IMG/VR virus record: IMGVR_UViG_3300034683_000117
Location: 13,065-77,064 of that record
Origin: a virus
Direction: 5' to 3' (one strand)
DNA: 64,000 bases
In this document: positions 15,381 through 36,670 of the stretch, one piece after another
Layout of the letters: each line of letters begins with the position of its first letter
How positions within the stretch are numbered: the first letter of the stretch is position 1
Notes under the pieces: generated by a model
The model's database searches: none
Told to the model about the DNA's origin: nothing
What the model saw: the letters and a program-made list of their open reading frames with translations, nothing else
Made by a program: the position numbers and the translations under genes

Positions 15381-15454
15381 TGGAGCACCTGTGGAGACTT
15401 GAACTCCAATTAATGGATTACAAATCCAACGTTCTACCGTTAAACTACAGGTGC
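15381..15454 (-). tRNA. tRNA-Thr (UGU), CCA encoded
   Basis: Acceptor GCACCTG/CAGGTGC, D arm GTTT..GAAC, anticodon loop TTTGTAA, T arm TGGAG-TTCAAGT-CTCCA. Confidence 0.88.
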
Positions 15455-19756: not shown

Positions 19757-20653
19757 TTAAATCGTTGCAACAACATCCAACGGACTGCGATTTACTGCGG
19801 TTTTTAAAGCATTGCTATCAACATGTGTATATATTTGCGTTGTGGATATATTACTATGTCCTAAAATTTCCTGCAACTGTCTGATATCCATATTGCCACT
19901 CTGATAATTCAGTGTCGCAAATGTATGTCGTAAAGTATGAACAGCAACGCCGCGTTTGTTCTCTATATTTAACCCGCTTCGACCTATTGCGTTCTTTACG
20001 ATACGTTCAACCACATCATGAGATATGCGATTGCCGATTTCTGACACAAACAGCGGCCTGTTCGGATCGGTGCAGCCCTGCGTATAATCTGCTAACTGTT
20101 TAACCATGTTATCGCTTAAATATACATTACGCTCTTTCCCTCCCTTCCCTTTGATAACAATATACCCATCTTTTATATCACCAACATTAATAGACACAAG
20201 CTCAGATAGTCTCATGCCGGTTGTAAGCAATAAGCTTACTATCAGTCTATCTCGCACCATGTTGCGCCCTTTGATATTATCAATAAGCTGTCGGCACTGT
20301 TCTATGGTGAAGTACCTTGGTATGGTTTTATCTATTTTAGGCGCATCGATATCCTGCATTATATTGTTATCTATAATCTTACGCATATGCAAATATGCAA
20401 AAAACGATCTTAAAGACGCAATCTTTCTACGCCTTGTAGAAGCGCTGCATCCGTCTTGCGATAATTTATATAACCATGCATAAATATGATCTATTGTGAC
20501 GTCTTTTAACGCTAATGAGTCAATCGCAAAATAATTGTTGGCCATATACGAATACCACGATGCTATATCTTGTATATATTGTTTAATGGTATTGTCACTT
20601 TTATTAACACCAACTAAATACATTTTATAATCATCTAATATCGTACTGTACAT
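19757..20653 (-). CDS. Tyrosine recombinase, XerC/D-like, catalytically intact
   Basis: TGMRLSEL, KGKGGKER, HTLRHTFAT, LGHSNISTTQIYTH. Confidence 0.95.
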   Translation of the reverse strand: MYSTILDDYKMYLVGVNKSDNTIKQYIQDIASWYSYMANNYFAIDSLALKDVTIDHIYAWLYKLSQDGCSASTRRRKIASLRSFFAYLHMRKIIDNNIMQDIDAPKIDKTIPRYFTIEQCRQLIDNIKGRNMVRDRLIVSLLLTTGMRLSELVSINVGDIKDGYIVIKGKGGKERNVYLSDNMVKQLADYTQGCTDPNRPLFVSEIGNRISHDVVERIVKNAIGRSGLNIENKRGVAVHTLRHTFATLNYQSGNMDIRQLQEILGHSNISTTQIYTHVDSNALKTAVNRSPLDVVATI

Positions 20654-23468: not shown

Positions 23469-23507
23469 TTTTAATTCCTCCTAAATATTTTTTATTTTGT
23501 ATCTATA

Positions 23508-23539
23508 ATATAGAGTCTCAACGCTCTATATTTTAAACC
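23508..23539 (-). promoter_or_regulatory. Class-1 phage promoter motif (GGTTTA-N21-TATAT), with inverted repeat
   Basis: GGTTTAAAATATAGAGCGTTGAGACTCTATAT; one of six copies. Confidence 0.7.
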
Positions 23540-23553
23540 CTGCATAAAAATAT

Positions 23554-23751
23554 TTATTGTTTATTATTTTGATATTCGTTTATATATTTATCATAATTTT
23601 GCCATATATTGCCTAAATTGATGTCTTGGCATAATATACCATCCACAATTGCATAATATAATTTTAGCACAATTTGTTTGTCTAGTAAATCCTGCACCGC
23701 CTTTCTAATTAGAAAATCTTGTAATTCTGTCATTTTTAATCTTCTTTCCAA
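23554..23751 (-). CDS. Hypothetical protein
   Basis: Co-oriented ORF; likely start MTELQ. Confidence 0.5.
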   Translation of the reverse strand: MERRLKMTELQDFLIRKAVQDLLDKQIVLKLYYAIVDGILCQDINLGNIWQNYDKYINEYQNNKQ

Positions 23752-23865: not shown

Positions 23866-24231
23866 TCACCCTTGAATATAATTTACTGCATCAATATACT
23901 GGTCAACTATATTTTGGAACCTTGCAATAGCTTCTTGTAGTGTAATACGCCCCATAAACTCCACCCCGCAATCTTTATTATTTGCATCTATACGTTTGAT
24001 TTCTAGTCCATAAAACGTATATGATAATACAAATATACTATCGCAAGCATGTACTACAAGCGGCAAATCGCTTTGCGTTATTTCCATAAACCAATTTAAA
24101 GCCTCCTGTAAATTATTTTTAGCTTCTGTTTTGGTTTTACCATATTCTTTCCATGGTCCCAAAGCGGCGACATATCCGCTGTGTTTACGCATCAACGTAT
24201 CTTTATATTCTGTTATGTCAATTTTTAACAT
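23866..24231 (-). CDS. Protein with HicB-like N-terminal motif
   Basis: GYVA..YGKTKTEAKNNLQEAL; start corrected to MLKID (the track's GTG lies inside the RNA gene). Confidence 0.5.
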   Translation of the reverse strand: MLKIDITEYKDTLMRKHSGYVAALGPWKEYGKTKTEAKNNLQEALNWFMEITQSDLPLVVHACDSIFVLSYTFYGLEIKRIDANNKDCGVEFMGRITLQEAIARFQNIVDQYIDAVNYIQG

Positions 24232-24250: not shown

Positions 24251-24329
24251 TGGTGGAGCTGCGGGGAATCGAACCCCGGTCCGGAGTTTTGCACGTTGGC
24301 CTTTCACTCCGTCGATACCTTCCAGCCCC
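24251..24329 (-). ncRNA. Mini-tmRNA: tRNA-like domain only (79 nt), no mRNA-like domain
   Basis: GGGGCTG/CAGCTCC acceptor with G3.U70, ACCA end, stemless D loop GAAGGTATCGAC, helix GGAGT/ACTCC closed by 18 nt, GGAC, T arm CGGGG-TTCGATT-CCCCG. Confidence 0.85.
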
Positions 24330-24334
24330 TATCT

Positions 24335-24664
24335 TTACACTCTTGCTAATGCCCTACACCCTATGATCTTACCCTGGTCATCTCTGACAGAATCATCTGG
24401 TATAACCAAATCTTGCCTATCTTTAGCAGCTTGGGCCACTAAAGCAGATACTATATACAATGTATCTGGCGCAGGATCTGGCAATCCGTCAACAGTACCA
24501 TATAATGTCTTATTAATATTAACATTGATACCATTAATATTAATAACATCTATAGTTTGTCTTGTCGTTGCGCACCTAGCCACTTGACCTGATGCTGGGA
24601 TTGTTATATCCCCAGCATCTGTCAAGATATTGATATCGTGAGGTGTTAAGTTAATTATCTTCAT
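24335..24664 (-). CDS. NLTPH-family small protein; candidate Crn4-like ring nuclease
   Basis: INLTPH..P.SG..AR..GLP.P..T.YIVS..VA..R.DL..P..VRD..G.IIGCR.L; family-to-function link recalled, not verified. Confidence 0.5.
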   Translation of the reverse strand: MKIINLTPHDINILTDAGDITIPASGQVARCATTRQTIDVININGINVNINKTLYGTVDGLPDPAPDTLYIVSALVAQAAKDRQDLVIPDDSVRDDQGKIIGCRALARV

Positions 24665-25137
24665 ATTTTCACCTTCTCTATAATAAAATCTTTTACTGTT
24701 TGTTCAATATCTTCAAAATCGTATAAATACATGTTACATGCAACATCCCAAATGTCGGCTACATCATCATCAGTCAATTTATCCACATATTCTGGGTAAT
24801 GATCCTTTATATATTTTATTGCATGGTTATACAAAATAGTTTCTCTGTTTTTGTCTAAAATATATTCATTATACATATACCATGCGTTTTGTATATCTTT
24901 AAGTATATCACCGCTAAAGTCTACAATACCTATTGCCTCATTGTAAAACCCAGCGTTATACAATTTTTCAAGATTGTTAAACAATTTATGTGAATATATA
25001 CTTACGTACAAATCCGCAACTGTATTTATCGCGTCCTCTATATAGCCTTCATATTCAAATGCCACCTCATCGCACATCATGGCATCATCTTGTCCCTGTA
25101 ACAGATTCTCTACATCGTATTTTTTATATTCTAACAT
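24661..25137 (-). CDS. Ocr-like acidic protein, paralogue 1
   Basis: IEDAINTVADLYVSIYSHKLF resembles T7 Ocr [21 protein letters not shown]. Confidence 0.55.
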   Translation of the reverse strand: MLEYKKYDVENLLQGQDDAMMCDEVAFEYEGYIEDAINTVADLYVSIYSHKLFNNLEKLYNAGFYNEAIGIVDFSGDILKDIQNAWYMYNEYILDKNRETILYNHAIKYIKDHYPEYVDKLTDDDVADIWDVACNMYLYDFEDIEQTVKDFIIEKVKI

Positions 25138-25174
25138 TTTTCTTCCCTCCAATTTTATTATTTATGTATCTATA

Positions 25175-25206
25175 ATATAGAGTTTTGATACTCTATATTA
25201 TAAACC
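25175..25206 (-). promoter_or_regulatory. Class-1 phage promoter motif with 12-bp inverted repeat
   Basis: GGTTTA-N21-TATAT; plus strand TATAATATAGAG-N8-CTCTATATTATA. Confidence 0.7.
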
Positions 25207-25224
25207 CTACACAAAAATTTTTAT

Positions 25225-25518
25225 TTATTCTTGCCACCCTTCAAGGAGCATGGCCACACCATATGGTATATGGCTGTCTTGATTTGGACTATTCAATAGC
25301 CATACCAACGGATCGCCACCATTACATATACAATTAGCAAATAAATGATCGGCAAATGCTGGATTAACAACCACTTTCGCGGTGTTTACATCACTTTTTC
25401 CATTCCAACCTATAGCCTTATAAAAATCGACTATAGAGTGAATAGATACCTTGCCTACACGTACCAACCTAGCGTTCTTAAATACGCTGGGCAATCTTGG
25501 TTCTTGCAATTCTACCAT
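25225..25518 (-). CDS. Hypothetical protein
   Basis: GGAGG RBS. Confidence 0.6.
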   Translation of the reverse strand: MVELQEPRLPSVFKNARLVRVGKVSIHSIVDFYKAIGWNGKSDVNTAKVVVNPAFADHLFANCICNGGDPLVWLLNSPNQDSHIPYGVAMLLEGWQE

Positions 25519-26020: not shown

Positions 26021-26147
26021 TTGATAAAACCTCCATTTTATTTTATATTGCCGTGTTTTGGCGATTTGCTCAGGTACACGGCAAACCTACTCTTTAATAA
26101 GTCTTGTATACTAGAATTATATTATATAATAGTTATATTGTCAACTA

Positions 26148-26630
26148 TTATTGATCACCTCCTTTTATCCATTCCACCAATTCATCAACGATGGATTCGA
26201 TATCTGCGAACTTGTTTCCATCATCAATATTTGTTAGTGCTAGTGCTAGATCGCTGACTTTTATTTTGTCTACAAATTCTGGATAGCGATCTTGAATAAT
26301 TCTAACTGCATAGTTAAACACTATCTCGTCAAAGTTATTATAAATTTGCCGCTCGGTATAATAGTACCATGCTTGTCCAATGTTTTTGATTAAGTCTCCA
26401 GCATCGCCATATTCTTGTATAACATCATCATAATTGCCACTATTATACAGTATTGGAACAGCTTCAAATAATACATCGTTCCATATACTGACCGATGAAT
26501 CAGCTGTCTCTGTTATTGCTTCTCTAATTTCAACATCACCAGCCACATCTAACACGCGGTCAAGGACTTGTTCGTCGTCCTGCAATTCCCCTAACAGATT
26601 CTCTACATCGTATTTTTTAAATTTTAACAT
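26148..26630 (-). CDS. Ocr-like acidic protein, paralogue 2
   Basis: IREAITETADSSVSIWNDVLF and DLIKNIGQAWY align with Ocr helices; shares KKYDVENLL with paralogue 1. Confidence 0.55.
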   Translation of the reverse strand: MLKFKKYDVENLLGELQDDEQVLDRVLDVAGDVEIREAITETADSSVSIWNDVLFEAVPILYNSGNYDDVIQEYGDAGDLIKNIGQAWYYYTERQIYNNFDEIVFNYAVRIIQDRYPEFVDKIKVSDLALALTNIDDGNKFADIESIVDELVEWIKGGDQ

Positions 26631-26637
26631 TTTTAAT

Positions 26638-26701
26638 TCCTCCAATTTTATTATTTTATTTTATATAATATATAGTATTTAACAATGTATTTTTAAACCT
26701 T
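26638..26701 (-). repeat. 64-bp exact repeat (class-1 promoter plus RBS), identical to 27533-27596
   Basis: Direct comparison. Confidence 0.9.
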
Positions 26702-26990: not shown

Positions 26991-27033
26991 TTTTAAACCC
27001 TCCAATAATTTTTAATTTTATTCTTTATCTATA

Positions 27034-27065
27034 ATATAGAGTCTTTATATACTTGTTTTTAAACC
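27034..27065 (-). promoter_or_regulatory. Class-1 phage promoter motif
   Basis: GGTTTA-N21-TATAT. Confidence 0.7.
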
Positions 27066-27137
27066 TGCTTAAAAATTTGCTAGACTTGTTTTAAGTCGAT
27101 TCTTGCATAATATTATATTAATATAAGCACAAAAACT

Positions 27138-27941: not shown

Positions 27942-27981
27942 TTTAATTCCTCCAATAAAATTTATTTTTTATGTATCTATA

Positions 27982-28013
27982 ATATAGAGTATTTAACTAG
28001 CTTATTTTAAACC
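27982..28013 (-). promoter_or_regulatory. Class-1 phage promoter motif
   Basis: GGTTTA-N21-TATAT. Confidence 0.7.
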
Positions 28014-28025
28014 TTACGCAAAAAA

Positions 28026-28063
28026 TTTTTATATGAATATATAAGTATATATTCATATAAAAA
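28026..28063. repeat. Inverted repeat, 18-bp perfect arms, 2-nt spacer
   Basis: TTTTTATATGAATATATA-AG-TATATATTCATATAAAAA. Confidence 0.9.
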
Positions 28064-28107: not shown

Positions 28108-28653
28108 TTATTTTATTGAGTAGCCAGCTTCATTAAGTGCCTTTTTTATGAGTTTGAATTTTTTGGAAATAGCCATAACCGATACACCTTGCAGTTTGGC
28201 TATTTCTGTCATGCTTAAACCAGCCAGCTTAAGTTTGATTATATCGTGATACTTTTTTGGAATTGTATCCCAAGCTTCATAATCGCTATCAAACTGACTA
28301 CTAACAGCCAGTATATCACGTGTAGCAACTAGATCGTCGCTTTCTGATTCACGCTCACGCGTGATATAGTCTAGCGACTCATGCATGATATTATATTTAT
28401 ACTGATGTTTCATAGCATTATAAGCGCAAGTCGCTAGATATGTAAGGCCGGGTATAAATGCGTGTTTTTTGTCGTTAGTCACAAACTTGATCATAATGTT
28501 ATCAACTATATCTATAGCTTCATCAAAAGTTAAACGACAAACTTTACTGATATACTTAATAGCCAACCGATATTGCTCCTCATTATATAAATCGATCGCT
28601 CCTTTCGCAGCTTGTACATATTGATACTGTTTGTTGTTATCCATTTTTTGCAT
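28108..28653 (-). CDS. ECF-like sigma-70 family factor
   Basis: Region 2-like DEAIDIV..TYLATCAYNAM; region 4 HTH IPKKYHDIIKL..GLSMTEIAKLQGVS..AISK. Confidence 0.75.
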   Translation of the reverse strand: MQKMDNNKQYQYVQAAKGAIDLYNEEQYRLAIKYISKVCRLTFDEAIDIVDNIMIKFVTNDKKHAFIPGLTYLATCAYNAMKHQYKYNIMHESLDYITRERESESDDLVATRDILAVSSQFDSDYEAWDTIPKKYHDIIKLKLAGLSMTEIAKLQGVSVMAISKKFKLIKKALNEAGYSIK

Positions 28654-35283: not shown

Positions 35284-36495
35284 ATGATACAAAGGAACTC
35301 ACTCAAAATGATTAAAGCATATAAAGTAATGCTATTACCGAATAATAAACAACAAACCAAGTTATTTGAATGTGCTAGTGTTGCTAGATGGGCGTATAAT
35401 TGGGCACTAGAACAAGAACAAATTAATTACAAAAATGGTGGTAAATTTTTGTATGATAGTGTTTTAAGGAAAAGATTAACTGAGCTTAAGCAAACAGAAG
35501 AATATAAATGGTTAAATAATTATTCAAATAATATCACAAAACAAGCAATAAAAGATGCTTGTAGCGCTTATAAGAATTTTTTTGATGGTCGTGCTGAATT
35601 TCCTAAGTTTAAGTCTAAGAAGAGAAATACGCCAAGTTTTTATCAAGATACAGCTAAAATAATTATTACAGATACCCACGTCAAATTAGAAAAGTTAACA
35701 ACTTCGCAGAAAACTAACAAGTTAACATTTAATTGGGTTAGATTAGCTGAACCAGGGAGAATCCCATGCGGCGAAAATATTAAATATTTTAATCCGCGTA
35801 TAACTTTTGATGGTTTGCACTGGTGGTTATCGGTAGGCGTAGAAGAAGATATACAATATAATGATACCACTTATTCTGAAGGCATCGGTATAGATTTGGG
35901 TGTTAAAGATTTGGCTATAATCAGTACAGGGCGGGGGTTTAAGAATATCAATAAATCTGATAAGGTTAAAAAACTCGAAAAGAAACTTAAGCGGCTGCAA
36001 AGAAAGTTGTCCCAAAAATATGAACTTAATAAAATTCAAACAGACGCAGGTAAATACCATTACAGAAAAACTAACAATATAAAGAAGTTAGAATTCCTCG
36101 TCCGTAAAACCTATAGAAGGCTTAAAAATATAAGATGCGATTATATTCATCAAACAACTACGTCTTTGGTGAGAACCAAGCCAGAGTATGTAGTAATGGA
36201 AAATCTGAATGTTTCTGGTATGCTGCAAAATAGAAAATTATCAAAAGCTATACAAGAACAGAGTTTCCATGAGTTCAAAAGACAGATGGAATATAAATGC
36301 GCGTGGCATGGAATTCCGTTTATACTAGCAGATAGATATTATCCATCAAGCAAAACTTGCAGCAGATGCGGTAATGTAAGGGATAAATTATCATTGTCAG
36401 AAAGAACATTTATATGCCCCGAATGCGGGTATAAGATTGACAGGGATTTAAATGCTAGTATAAATCTTAAAAACTATGGTGAATCAATAGTATAG
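35284..36495 (+). CDS. tnpB: RNA-guided endonuclease TnpB (IS607-like), RuvC triad intact, no tnpA
   Basis: HTH_OrfB N-terminus; GIDLG, VMENL, DRDLNAS; CSRC/CPEC. Confidence 0.95.
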   Translation: MIQRNSLKMIKAYKVMLLPNNKQQTKLFECASVARWAYNWALEQEQINYKNGGKFLYDSVLRKRLTELKQTEEYKWLNNYSNNITKQAIKDACSAYKNFFDGRAEFPKFKSKKRNTPSFYQDTAKIIITDTHVKLEKLTTSQKTNKLTFNWVRLAEPGRIPCGENIKYFNPRITFDGLHWWLSVGVEEDIQYNDTTYSEGIGIDLGVKDLAIISTGRGFKNINKSDKVKKLEKKLKRLQRKLSQKYELNKIQTDAGKYHYRKTNNIKKLEFLVRKTYRRLKNIRCDYIHQTTTSLVRTKPEYVVMENLNVSGMLQNRKLSKAIQEQSFHEFKRQMEYKCAWHGIPFILADRYYPSSKTCSRCGNVRDKLSLSERTFICPECGYKIDRDLNASINLKNYGESIV

Positions 36496-36514: not shown

Positions 36515-36670
36515 TATGTACCCATATGTTAGTGGGGAATTTAAGCCTTTGGAGTGTCAAACAAACACAAGTAGGTTTATCCAAAAGTGGACATGATGAA
36601 CAAGGAAGGAAACTTAAACTTTATAAAGTTTTGTAAGTTTTCTGTAACAGTATAACTATTTTTTAAAATT
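36515..36670 (+). ncRNA. omegaRNA and right end of tnpB element (end near 36650, guide approximately TATAACTATTTTTTAAAATT)
   Basis: GTACCC..GGGGAATTTAAGCCTTTGGAGTGTC..GACATGATGAACAAGGAA; terminal AAGTTTT repeats ending GTAACAG. Confidence 0.65.

What the first reader, a model, noticed from the sequence alone, without database searches (positions are those of the whole stretch)
24251..24329. Phage-encoded mini-tmRNA: intact tRNA-like domain with no tag-encoding domain
Seen: the minus strand reads GGGGCUG GAAGGUAUCGAC GGAGU [18 nt] ACUCC GGAC CGGGG UUCGAUU CCCCG CAGCUCC ACCA. It has the AlaRS G3.U70 pair, discriminator A, encoded CCA, a stemless D loop ending CGAC, helix 2a and a perfect T arm. 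Known: these define the tmRNA TLD bound by SmpB, AlaRS and EF-Tu; normal tmRNA has about 280 further nt of pseudoknots and tag ORF where this has 18 nt. TLD-only tmRNAs are known from jakobid mitochondria and full-length ones from some phages; I know of no TLD-only phage RNA. Both ends are present and every stem pairs, which fits selection better than decay. Inference: it may sequester SmpB and block trans-translation, rescue stalled ribosomes without degradation tagging, or act as a decoy for tRNA/tmRNA-cleaving defence toxins.
Basis: partly seen in the sequence, partly recalled or inferred. Interest (0 to 1): 0.92.

Follow-up and report, generated by a model that had tools for sequence, protein, structure and literature searches.

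The report
Phage tag-less mini-tmRNA gene
This uncultured phage of a low-GC Gram-positive host carries a real 79-base gene for only the alanine-accepting, tRNA-like end of the bacterial ribosome-rescue RNA (tmRNA). The type is already known from mycobacteriophage DS6A; here it sits in an anti-defence gene cassette and probably diverts the host's rescue-and-tagging system.

Summary
Window 24251-24329 (minus strand) matches Rfam tmRNA end to end at 65.9 bits (cut-off 47), with 312 model positions replaced by 18 nt. It has a 7-bp acceptor stem with G3.U70, discriminator A, encoded CCA, a stemless D loop, helix 2a and a T arm.

It is not new in kind. A 'TLD only' tmRNA of mycobacteriophage DS6A is in the literature (PMC4131195, PMC11915505). 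A model I built from phage look-alikes scores DS6A at 61 bits and the window at 74 bits. This scan has also found the same kind before on other DNA.

Two scans of viral contigs gave over 100 distinct members with strong covariation. In a set chosen without reference to the acceptor stem, G3.U70 held in 103 of 106 and discriminator A in 106 of 106. Alanine charging therefore looks selected.

An attP fragment, a decayed relic and a D-armless tRNA-Ala are all rejected.

Local context is new. The gene lies 5 nt after a Crn4b-type ring-nuclease homologue that overlaps an Ocr-like gene.

Best reading, inferred and untested: a charged competitor of host tmRNA for SmpB and stalled ribosomes, which blocks tagging.

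Not obtained: expression, host identity and the host ssrA comparison.

The parts
24251..24329 (-). Mini-tmRNA gene (TLD only), 79 nt, with encoded CCA
   Evidence: Rfam RF00023 65.9 bits, model 1-374 with 312 positions deleted. Model R1 73.9 bits. Sequence read.
24323..24329 (-). Acceptor stem, 5' strand GGGGCUG (G3 of the G3.U70 pair)
   Evidence: Pairs 7/7 with 24255-24261. G3.U70 is 70/70 in alignment A4.
24311..24322 (-). Stemless D loop GAAGGUAUCGAC. Its final C opens helix 2a.
   Evidence: Aligned to the tmRNA consensus AucuGGaUUCGAC. UCGAC is invariant in the family, but it was part of both search patterns.
24282..24311 (-). Helix 2a (CGGAGU/ACUCCG, 6 standard pairs) closing an 18-nt cap (24288-24305) that replaces the pseudoknots and tag ORF
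   Evidence: Six of the 7 helix-2a pairs covary in the family.
24262..24278 (-). T arm CGGGG-UUCGAUU-CCCCG
   Evidence: The two outer pairs, left free in the search patterns, are paired in 105/106 and covary.
24251..24261 (-). Acceptor 3' strand CAGCUCC, discriminator A (24254), CCA (24251-24253)
   Evidence: Discriminator A is 106/106 in the set chosen without reference to the acceptor stem.
24335..24664 (-). Upstream gene, 109 aa, Crn4b-type ring-nuclease homologue. Its stop codon lies 5 nt before the RNA.
   Evidence: PDB sequence matches: Crn4b 9r7b_A E 1.3e-15, Crn4a 9sma_A E 6e-14. N-terminal NLTPH fits the conserved T-x-H described in PMC12830947. phrog_30542.
24661..25152 (-). Ocr-like gene heading the cassette; overlaps the start of the Crn4b-like gene
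   Evidence: phrog_2568 'ocr-like anti-restriction', E 2.3e-5, a weak match. ORF list.
25151..25232 (-). Repeated leader of about 80 nt, containing a 12-bp inverted repeat and followed by an RBS. It is the nearest upstream candidate regulatory element.
   Evidence: Repeat family D1: four copies at 23484, 25151, 27010 and 27958, with shorter copies at 26628 and 27523.
26116..26144 (-). Perfect sigma-70-type promoter match (TTGACA-17-TATAAT), 1.8 kb upstream on the same strand
   Evidence: 12/12 match. No terminator-like site on the minus strand between it and the RNA. This is a consensus match only.
23866..24231 (-). Downstream ORF, 121 aa, unknown function. Its RBS follows the CCA end, and its ATG lies 19 nt after the RNA's 3' end.
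   Evidence: No PHROG or Pfam family. Only weak HicB-like and LPD16/YodL-like fold leads, TM below 0.5.

Best explanation
This is a functional phage gene for a tag-less, TLD-only tmRNA of the type first noted in mycobacteriophage DS6A.

Inferred mechanism:
1. The RNA is transcribed early, as part of the Ocr-like / Crn4b-like cassette.
2. It is cut out like a tRNA: RNase P makes the 5' end at 24329, and trimming stops at the encoded CCA at 24251.
3. Host AlaRS charges it with alanine, using G3.U70 and A73.
4. It binds host SmpB through the D-loop/T-loop elbow and helix 2a.
5. As Ala-TLD with SmpB and EF-Tu, it competes with host tmRNA for SmpB and for ribosomes stalled on broken mRNAs.

Because it has no resume codon or tag ORF, stalled chains would receive at most one alanine and no degradation tag. 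Host trans-translation tagging would therefore be blocked or diverted during infection.

Shown here: the gene, its structure, its family, and selection on the alanine identity elements. Inferred only: expression, processing, charging, SmpB binding and the effect on the host.
For: Identity:
- Rfam tmRNA 65.9 bits over the whole model with the middle deleted.
- Model R1 scores the window at 73.9 bits. It also scores DS6A at 61.2, Jojan60 at 71.6 and LuckySocke at 63.8 bits, and none of these three was used to build it.

Selection on structure:
- In 41 sequences, 91% of cells are paired, with covariation 0.587 against 0.133 in shuffles.
- In an independent set of 70 distinct sequences found with a pattern that did not include the acceptor stem, 94% are paired, with covariation 0.630 against 0.131.
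- The nearest relative (L040, identical to L201; 82% identity) differs by compensatory changes in the acceptor stem, helix 2a and the T stem.
- The RNA is 62% G+C in 34% G+C DNA.

Selection on charging:
- G3.U70 holds in 103/106 and discriminator A in 106/106 when the acceptor was not part of the search.
- G3.U70 is 70/70 while acceptor pairs 4-7 vary freely.

Precedent: PMC4131195 and PMC11915505 state that a similar molecule strongly inhibits tmRNA in E. coli, perhaps by titrating SmpB.

Context:
- The phage record holds no SmpB gene of its own, so host SmpB would be used. The record is only 54% complete.
- The gene sits between a Crn4b homologue and the next ORF, in a cassette headed by an Ocr-like gene.
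- Fourteen of 40 family loci place the mini in or beside tRNA gene clusters, which fits tRNA-like processing.
Against: - There are no expression data for this phage.
- The host and its ssrA and SmpB are unknown, so compatibility is untested.
- The element is absent from the nearest available relatives: Clostridium phage c-st, four contigs sharing the upstream gene, and 26 loci with homologues of that gene. It is therefore a sporadic accessory gene.
- Folding energy alone is not significant.
- The inner cap hairpin that many members have is only 2 bp in the window.
- The cited experiment is reported to show inhibition 'whether or not chargeable'. That fits a plain SmpB sponge as well as my charged-competitor reading.
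- Invariance of the UCGAC, GGAC and T-loop motifs is partly imposed by my search patterns.
Confidence: 0.5

Rival explanations
1. Pure SmpB sponge. The RNA only sequesters SmpB, and charging and ribosome entry are irrelevant. Host tmRNA is left without its cofactor and trans-translation stops.
For: [quoted passage not shown] All TLD elements that form the SmpB-binding elbow are present.
Against: A sponge needs no AlaRS identity, yet G3.U70 (103/106; 70/70) and A73 (106/106) are kept while neighbouring acceptor pairs vary freely.
Confidence: 0.25
2. Decoy or spare target. The RNA absorbs a host defence nuclease, or another factor, that attacks tRNA-Ala or tmRNA acceptor/T-arm structures.
For: It lies in a cassette with anti-defence candidates (Ocr-like, Crn4b-like). 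Many family members sit in phage tRNA clusters. Its 28-nt 3' end is identical to that of many bacterial tRNA-Ala genes and Nocardioides tmRNAs.
Against: No nuclease with this target is indicated by any result here. The tmRNA-specific D loop and helix 2a are conserved, which a mere acceptor/T-arm decoy would not need.
Confidence: 0.08
3. Cis-acting processing signal. A tRNA-like punctuation element lets RNase P cut the polycistronic early mRNA between the Crn4b-like gene and the next ORF, and it has no role in trans.
For: The spacing is tight: 5 nt after a stop codon, with the next RBS straight after the CCA.
Against: Punctuation would not require G3.U70, A73, or the tmRNA-type D loop and helix 2a across more than 100 unrelated phage contexts. 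Many members lie in tRNA clusters, not between ORFs.
Confidence: 0.05
4. Non-functional remnant: either an attP core copied from the 3' end of the host ssrA, or a decaying full-length phage tmRNA with an internal deletion.
For: A tyrosine integrase lies 3.6 kb away on the same strand (19757-20653). tmRNA genes are frequent integration sites (PMC11915505).
Against: The 5' acceptor strand, D loop and 5' strand of helix 2a are present and fully paired. True 3' fragments look different: 12 hits of the relaxed pattern lack a pairing 5' strand. The same deletion boundaries recur in more than 100 covarying sequences. The host ssrA itself could not be compared.
Confidence: 0.03
5. An unusual alanine tRNA without a D stem that decodes alanine codons.
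For: The acceptor and T arm are identical to bacterial tRNA-Ala genes.
Against: There is no anticodon arm: helix 2a closes an 18-nt loop, not a 7-nt one. ARAGORN calls no tRNA here. Within the tRNA/tmRNA clan, Rfam keeps tmRNA as the best match. Two family loci also carry a normal tRNA-Ala(UGC) (L006, L034).
Confidence: 0.02

Closest known systems
'TLD only' (CDS-less) tmRNA of Mycobacterium phage DS6A (tmRNA Website tmID 11587 / Phage__Mycobacterium.9; PMC4131195, PMC11915505; JN698994 about 28478-28560)
   Same: Same architecture: 7-bp acceptor with G3.U70 and discriminator A, stemless D loop ending in CGAC, helix 2a closed by a short cap, T arm, no tag ORF, phage-encoded. The same covariance model hits both (61.2 and 73.9 bits).
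   Different: Only 53% identical in the structural alignment. DS6A has GCAC instead of GGAC, a GCGAG/CUCGC T stem and no encoded CCA, and it falls below Rfam's gathering score. The host phylum differs (Actinomycetota against a probable Bacillota host). The window's cap hairpin is reduced to 2 bp. The genomic setting differs: an anti-defence cassette here, and next to a DNA polymerase III gene in DS6A.
Unannotated mini-tmRNAs in cultured phages: Stenotrophomonas virus Jojan60, Streptomyces phages LuckySocke and GiJojo
   Same: Full-length matches to the window element at 76% identity. Jojan60 scores 61.8 bits on Rfam and 71.6 on R1; LuckySocke scores 63.8 on R1.
   Different: They lie inside tRNA gene clusters, whereas the window's lies alone between protein genes. 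LuckySocke encodes no CCA.
Full-length bacterial tmRNA (Rfam RF00023) and full-length phage tmRNAs (Bxz1-like mycobacteriophages, Bacillus phage G; PMC4131195)
   Same: The tRNA-like domain is the same: acceptor, D loop, helix 2a, T arm, CCA (compare the full-length example).
   Different: It lacks the resume codon, tag ORF and all pseudoknots; 312 model positions are replaced by 18 nt. It cannot add a tag or supply a stop codon.
CDS-less organellar tmRNAs: jakobid and other mitochondria; Mallomonadaceae plastids, about 65 bp (PMC11915505)
   Same: Natural tmRNA derivatives with no tag reading frame that coexist with SmpB.
   Different: These are organellar genes that stand in for the cell's own tmRNA, and the mitochondrial forms are usually permuted two-piece genes. 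The phage RNA is added on top of a host that presumably has a complete tmRNA.
TLD-like molecule expressed in E. coli (Mao et al. 2009, RNA Biol 6:355; known to me only through PMC4131195 and PMC11915505)
   Same: A TLD-only molecule; reported to inhibit endogenous tmRNA strongly.
   Different: The paper itself is not held, so details could not be checked. That molecule was tested in E. coli, not in a phage infection.

Membership tests
Phage TLD-only (CDS-less) tmRNA, DS6A type | Seven-bp acceptor stem with G3.U70 and discriminator A | tested here: met
   Family-wide: 103/106 and 106/106; 70/70.
Phage TLD-only (CDS-less) tmRNA, DS6A type | tmRNA-type stemless D loop (GG..UCGAC) and helix 2a with GGAC on the 3' side | tested here: met
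   Aligned to the RF00023 consensus with posterior probabilities near 1.
Phage TLD-only (CDS-less) tmRNA, DS6A type | Helix 2a closed by a short cap in place of the mRNA-like domain and pseudoknots; total length about 60-95 nt | tested here: met
   18-nt cap, 79 nt in all. Family lengths are 62-94 nt with a mode of 82.
Phage TLD-only (CDS-less) tmRNA, DS6A type | Recognised by the same covariance model as the published DS6A element | tested here: met
   R1: window 73.9 bits, DS6A 61.2 bits; DS6A was not in the training set.
Phage TLD-only (CDS-less) tmRNA, DS6A type | Encoded by a phage | tested here: met
   IMG/VR virus record. Terminase, portal, tail, endolysin and integrase genes are in the window. 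TerL is 39% identical to that of Clostridium phage c-st.
Phage TLD-only (CDS-less) tmRNA, DS6A type | Binds SmpB and inhibits host tmRNA | not testable with these tools
   Rests on statements in PMC4131195 and PMC11915505 about a similar molecule.
Canonical tmRNA (RF00023) | mRNA-like domain with resume codon, tag ORF and stop codon | tested here: not met
   312 model positions are absent, and an 18-nt loop cannot hold an ORF. ARAGORN finds no tmRNA or tag peptide.
Canonical tmRNA (RF00023) | Pseudoknots PK1-PK4 | tested here: not met
   compare the full-length Aeromicrobium example.
tRNA-Ala | Anticodon arm (5-bp stem, 7-nt loop with an alanine anticodon) and D stem | tested here: not met
   True tRNA-Ala genes with the same 3' end show both arms.
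attP / 3' fragment of ssrA | Only a contiguous 3' part of ssrA, with no pairing 5' acceptor strand | tested here: not met
   The 5' strand pairs 7/7. Fragments of that kind were seen among the 12 low-pairing hits.
attP / 3' fragment of ssrA | Identity to the host ssrA confined to the 3' part | not tested

The most novel reading that the evidence does not exclude
The mini-tmRNA is a charged, ribosome-acting counter-defence RNA. It is made from the same early cassette as an Ocr-like protein and a Crn4b ring nuclease. It would rescue ribosomes stalled on mRNAs cut by the host's RNA-cleaving defences, for example cOA-activated RNases of type III CRISPR or abortive-infection toxins. It would donate a single alanine and add no degradation tag, so phage proteins and ribosomes are spared. 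Near-invariant AlaRS identity across more than 100 phage members would then mark a widespread, undescribed arm of phage counter-defence.
Probability: 0.15. Interest if true: 0.8.

Novelty: new member of a known kind. Interest (0 to 1): 0.42.

Why it matters
Trans-translation is the main ribosome-rescue path of bacteria and a drug target, and a natural small RNA that switches it off or bypasses its tag would be a useful tool. Published work records one phage case, DS6A. The 2025 tmRNA database lists only 9 'standard, no CDS' sequences among 97,179.

The window adds a probable Bacillota-phage example. It also adds a physical link to anti-defence genes (Ocr-like and Crn4b-like). Conservation of the alanine identity elements further suggests the RNA acts in its charged form rather than as a passive sponge.

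None of this changes the category: it is a further member of a known but under-studied kind.

Tried and rejected
- Megablast of 5 kb around the element against cultured phages: no match.
- ARAGORN: no call at the site. It made two doubtful long tmRNA calls built on mini 3' ends in L015 and L039.
- RNAfold z-score of -1.23: not informative.
- Sequencing runs: four DNA holders from one subsurface/soil study, and no RNA holder listed. Expression could not be examined and read laying was not used.
They were mostly tRNA-Ala genes of Actinomycetota, Alphaproteobacteria and Chloroflexota, plus Nocardioides tmRNAs, with no Bacillota. The scan is therefore not host-diagnostic, and eight apparent 'minis' were internal motifs of full-length tmRNAs.
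- Synteny, upstream gene: 26 loci with homologues of it have no mini within 3 kb.
- Synteny, downstream gene and TerL: neither has a relative in IMG/VR by this method.
- Synteny, larger relatives: c-st and four large relatives have no tmRNA match above the cut-off.
- Metagenome scan for the window's subfamily: one contig, identical to L040.
- Search for a conserved protein partner next to minis: none across the family, and no Crn4 or Ocr homologue beside other minis.
- SmpB gene in the phage record: none, though the record is only 54% complete.
- Pfam on eight neighbouring ORFs: nothing.
- DS6A with Rfam at the gathering threshold: no hit; it is found only with R1.
- Mao et al. 2009 is not held.
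- Complex prediction was not used, because it takes no RNA.

Full report
**What is there.**
- a 7-bp acceptor stem GGGGCUG/CAGCUCC with G3.U70;
- a stemless D loop ending UCGAC;
- helix 2a, with six standard pairs CGGAGU/ACUCCG;
- an 18-nt cap, then GGAC;
- a perfect T arm CGGGG-UUCGAUU-CCCCG;
- discriminator A and an encoded CCA.

Rfam's tmRNA model RF00023 matches from position 1 to 374 at 65.9 bits (gathering score 47, E 1.9e-23). It treats 312 internal positions as deleted and replaced by 18 nt. This is the only tmRNA-like match in the whole 77-kb record. ARAGORN sees nothing at the site. RNAfold gives the same structure, but its energy is unremarkable (z -1.23). The element is 62% G+C inside DNA of 34% G+C.

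**The genome.** The window belongs to an IMG/VR virus record that CheckV estimates at 54% complete. The window carries these genes:
- large terminase, portal, a 1872-aa tail protein and Dit;
- endolysin, a DnaB-like helicase and a tyrosine integrase.

The terminase is 39% identical to that of Clostridium phage c-st, where it is annotated as an SPbeta YonF homologue. A TnpB gene in the window is 78-81% identical to genes of Tepidanaerobacter, Caloramator, Thermoanaerobacterium and Anoxybacillus. The DNA occurs in subsurface and soil metagenomes of a single study. The host is therefore probably a low-GC, perhaps thermophilic, member of the Bacillota. This is an inference.

**Is the kind known?** Yes. 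Hudson, Lau and Williams 2014 list 'Mycobacterium phage DS6A (TLD only)'. [quoted passage not shown] They cite Mao et al. 2009 (PMC4131195). The 2025 tmRNA database paper repeats this and counts only 9 'standard, no CDS' sequences among 97,179 (PMC11915505). I read the DS6A locus. It has the same plan but a divergent sequence, no encoded CCA, and no Rfam hit at the gathering score. Full-text searches found no other paper on such phage RNAs. Earlier notes of this scan report the same kind in many other genomes; I treated them as leads only.

**The family, first scan.** A strict pattern scan of viral contigs gave 46 loci with 37 distinct elements, all with 7/7 acceptor pairs. I built covariance model R1 from these. 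Its scores were:

| Element | R1 bits | Used to build R1 |
|---|---|---|
| Window | 73.9 | yes |
| Stenotrophomonas phage Jojan60 | 71.6 | no |
| Streptomyces phage LuckySocke | 63.8 | no |
| Mycobacterium phage DS6A | 61.2 | no |

Ordinary tRNAs in the same loci score 33.5 bits or less. On 41 sequences, 91% of cells pair and the covariation score is 0.587, against 0.133 in shuffles and 0.09 or less when partners are slid.

**The family, second scan.** The first pattern fixed GGGG...CUCCACCA, so I ran a second scan anchored only on the D-loop end, GGAC and the T arm. Of 118 distinct elements, 106 have an acceptor stem of 6 or 7 pairs. Among these 106:
- G3.U70 is present in 103;
- the discriminator is A in all 106;
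- CCA is encoded in 38;
- lengths run from 62 to 94 nt, with a mode of 82.

The other 12 look like plain 3' fragments of full-length tmRNA without a pairing 5' strand, which is what an attP-type remnant looks like. R1 aligned 87 hits from these loci and the window, 70 of them distinct:
- G1-C72 and G3.U70 are 70/70, while pairs 4-7 of the acceptor vary with compensation;
- six of the 7 helix-2a pairs covary, and so do the two outer T-stem pairs;
- overall 94% of cells are paired, with covariation 0.630 against 0.131 in shuffles.

Caveat: UCGAC, GGAC and the T loop were fixed by the patterns, so their invariance is not evidence.

**The window's own lineage.** Its nearest relative is L040, identical to metagenome contig L201. 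It is 82% identical and differs by compensatory changes in all three main helices. The carrying phages share almost no genes. Closer relatives of the phage were not found. c-st, four large contigs and 26 loci with homologues of the upstream gene all lack a mini. The gene is thus a sporadic, horizontally spread accessory gene. No protein gene accompanies it across the family. Fourteen of 40 loci place it in or next to tRNA clusters, and two of these also carry a normal tRNA-Ala.

**Local context.** The RNA starts 5 nt after the stop codon of a 109-aa gene (24335-24664). That protein matches the solved ring nucleases Crn4b (E 1.3e-15) and Crn4a (E 6e-14). It carries the N-terminal T-x-H motif (NLTPH), which PMC12830947 describes as catalytic. 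The same paper reports Crn4b orthologues in phages as likely anti-CRISPRs. The gene overlaps the end of an Ocr-like gene (24661-25152, a weak PHROG match), which has a paralogue at 26148-26645.

An 80-nt leader containing an inverted repeat precedes the Ocr-like gene and recurs before other genes of the block. A perfect sigma-70 consensus lies at 26144-26116, with no terminator-like site before the RNA. The next ORF (121 aa) has its RBS straight after the CCA and its ATG 19 nt after the RNA's 3' end. It has no family match, only weak fold leads. So the mini-tmRNA is embedded in what looks like an early anti-defence cassette. Co-transcription is inferred.

**Mechanism.** Shown: a conserved TLD with selection on structure and on the alanine identity set. 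Established knowledge:
- G3.U70 and A73 direct AlaRS;
- the TLD elbow and helix 2a bind SmpB;
- Ala-tmRNA with SmpB and EF-Tu enters the empty A site of stalled ribosomes.

Inferred: the phage RNA is processed like a tRNA, charged, and competes with host tmRNA for SmpB and for stalled ribosomes. With no resume codon, it cannot add the degradation tag.

I prefer this charged-competitor reading (0.5) to a passive SmpB sponge (0.25). A sponge would not need G3.U70 and A73, yet both are nearly invariant while their neighbours drift. The published observation of charge-independent inhibition keeps the sponge alive. A decoy (0.08), a mere RNase P punctuation signal (0.05), an attP or relic (0.03) and a D-armless tRNA-Ala (0.02) fit the data poorly, for the reasons given under rivals.

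**Not done.** Expression could not be examined, because no RNA holder was listed. Mao et al. 2009 could not be read.

**Verdict.** This is a new member of a known but little-studied kind, in a notable setting beside a Crn4b-type ring nuclease. Interest 0.42.

Noticed in passing
window 24335-24664 (-): A 109-aa protein homologous to the solved ring nucleases Crn4b and Crn4a (E 1.3e-15 and 6e-14), with the N-terminal T-x-H motif. It is a likely phage anti-type III CRISPR / anti-cOA enzyme. Its start overlaps the Ocr-like gene. PHROGs lists the family (phrog_30542) as unknown function.
   Followed up: partly
window 24661-25152 (-) and 26148-26645 (-): Two paralogous genes of about 165 aa with weak matches to PHROG 'ocr-like anti-restriction' (E 2e-5 and 2e-4). 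Each follows a copy of the repeated leader.
   Followed up: partly
window 23484-23565, 25151-25232, 27010-27091, 27958-28039 (shorter copies near 26628 and 27523): A repeated intergenic leader of about 80 nt with a 12-bp inverted repeat (core TATAATATAGAGT ... ACTCTATATTATA) followed by an RBS. It heads successive minus-strand cassettes and may be a promoter, an operator or an RNA element.
   Followed up: partly
window 28108-28653 (-): A 181-aa ORF at the head of the early block. It has only sub-threshold matches to sigma-70 region 4 / ECF sigma (20.1 bits against a cut-off of 25.7), so a phage sigma factor is possible but not shown.
   Followed up: partly
window 35284-36495 (+) and 36546-36607 (+): A TnpB (IS200/IS605 accessory) gene, 78-81% identical to genes of thermophilic Bacillota. 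It is followed 50 nt later by an Rfam RAGATH-18 match (62.3 bits), which probably belongs to the element's guide (omega) RNA.
   Followed up: partly
window 23866-24231 (-): A 121-aa ORF directly after the mini-tmRNA, with no PHROG or Pfam family and no relatives in IMG/VR by peptide search. The only leads are weak fold matches (TM below 0.5) to HicB-like antitoxins (N-terminal half) and LPD16/YodL-like domains (C-terminal half).
   Followed up: partly
L168 2501-2583 (Stenotrophomonas virus Jojan60, ON045087.1 37722-37804); L196 2501-2581 (Streptomyces phage LuckySocke); GiJojo PP725410.1 17025-17103: Cultured phages carry the same mini-tmRNA without annotation. In Jojan60 and GiJojo a 'hypothetical protein' CDS is annotated over it. 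In Jojan60 and LuckySocke it lies inside a tRNA gene cluster.
   Followed up: partly
L015 5905-6228 and L039 10275-10670: ARAGORN builds long 'tmRNA' calls with odd tag peptides on the 3' end of a mini-tmRNA. These are probably artefacts that would mislead automatic annotation.
   Followed up: no
L207, L264, L265, L289, L293 and seven more loci: Viral contigs that hold only the 3' part of a tmRNA (helix 2 3' strand, T arm, acceptor 3' strand, CCA) with no pairing 5' strand. They may be attP-type fragments or parts of full-length or permuted phage tmRNAs.
   Followed up: no
L032 6898-6972; L023 4138-4229; L027 13144-13216; L044 9717-9790: Phage tRNA clusters beside minis include a CUA-anticodon (amber suppressor-like) tRNA, which ARAGORN labels 'Pyl', and several tRNAs with irregular anticodon loops.
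   Followed up: no
window 15381-15454 (-): A single conventional tRNA-Thr(UGU), 66.8 bits. It is the only ordinary tRNA in the window.
   Followed up: no
L190-L193, just downstream of the Crn4b-like homologue (for example L190 3451-3533): In some distant relatives a tRNA gene (Tyr, Thr or Ser) flanks the Crn4b-like gene at the spot where the window has the mini-tmRNA.
   Followed up: partly
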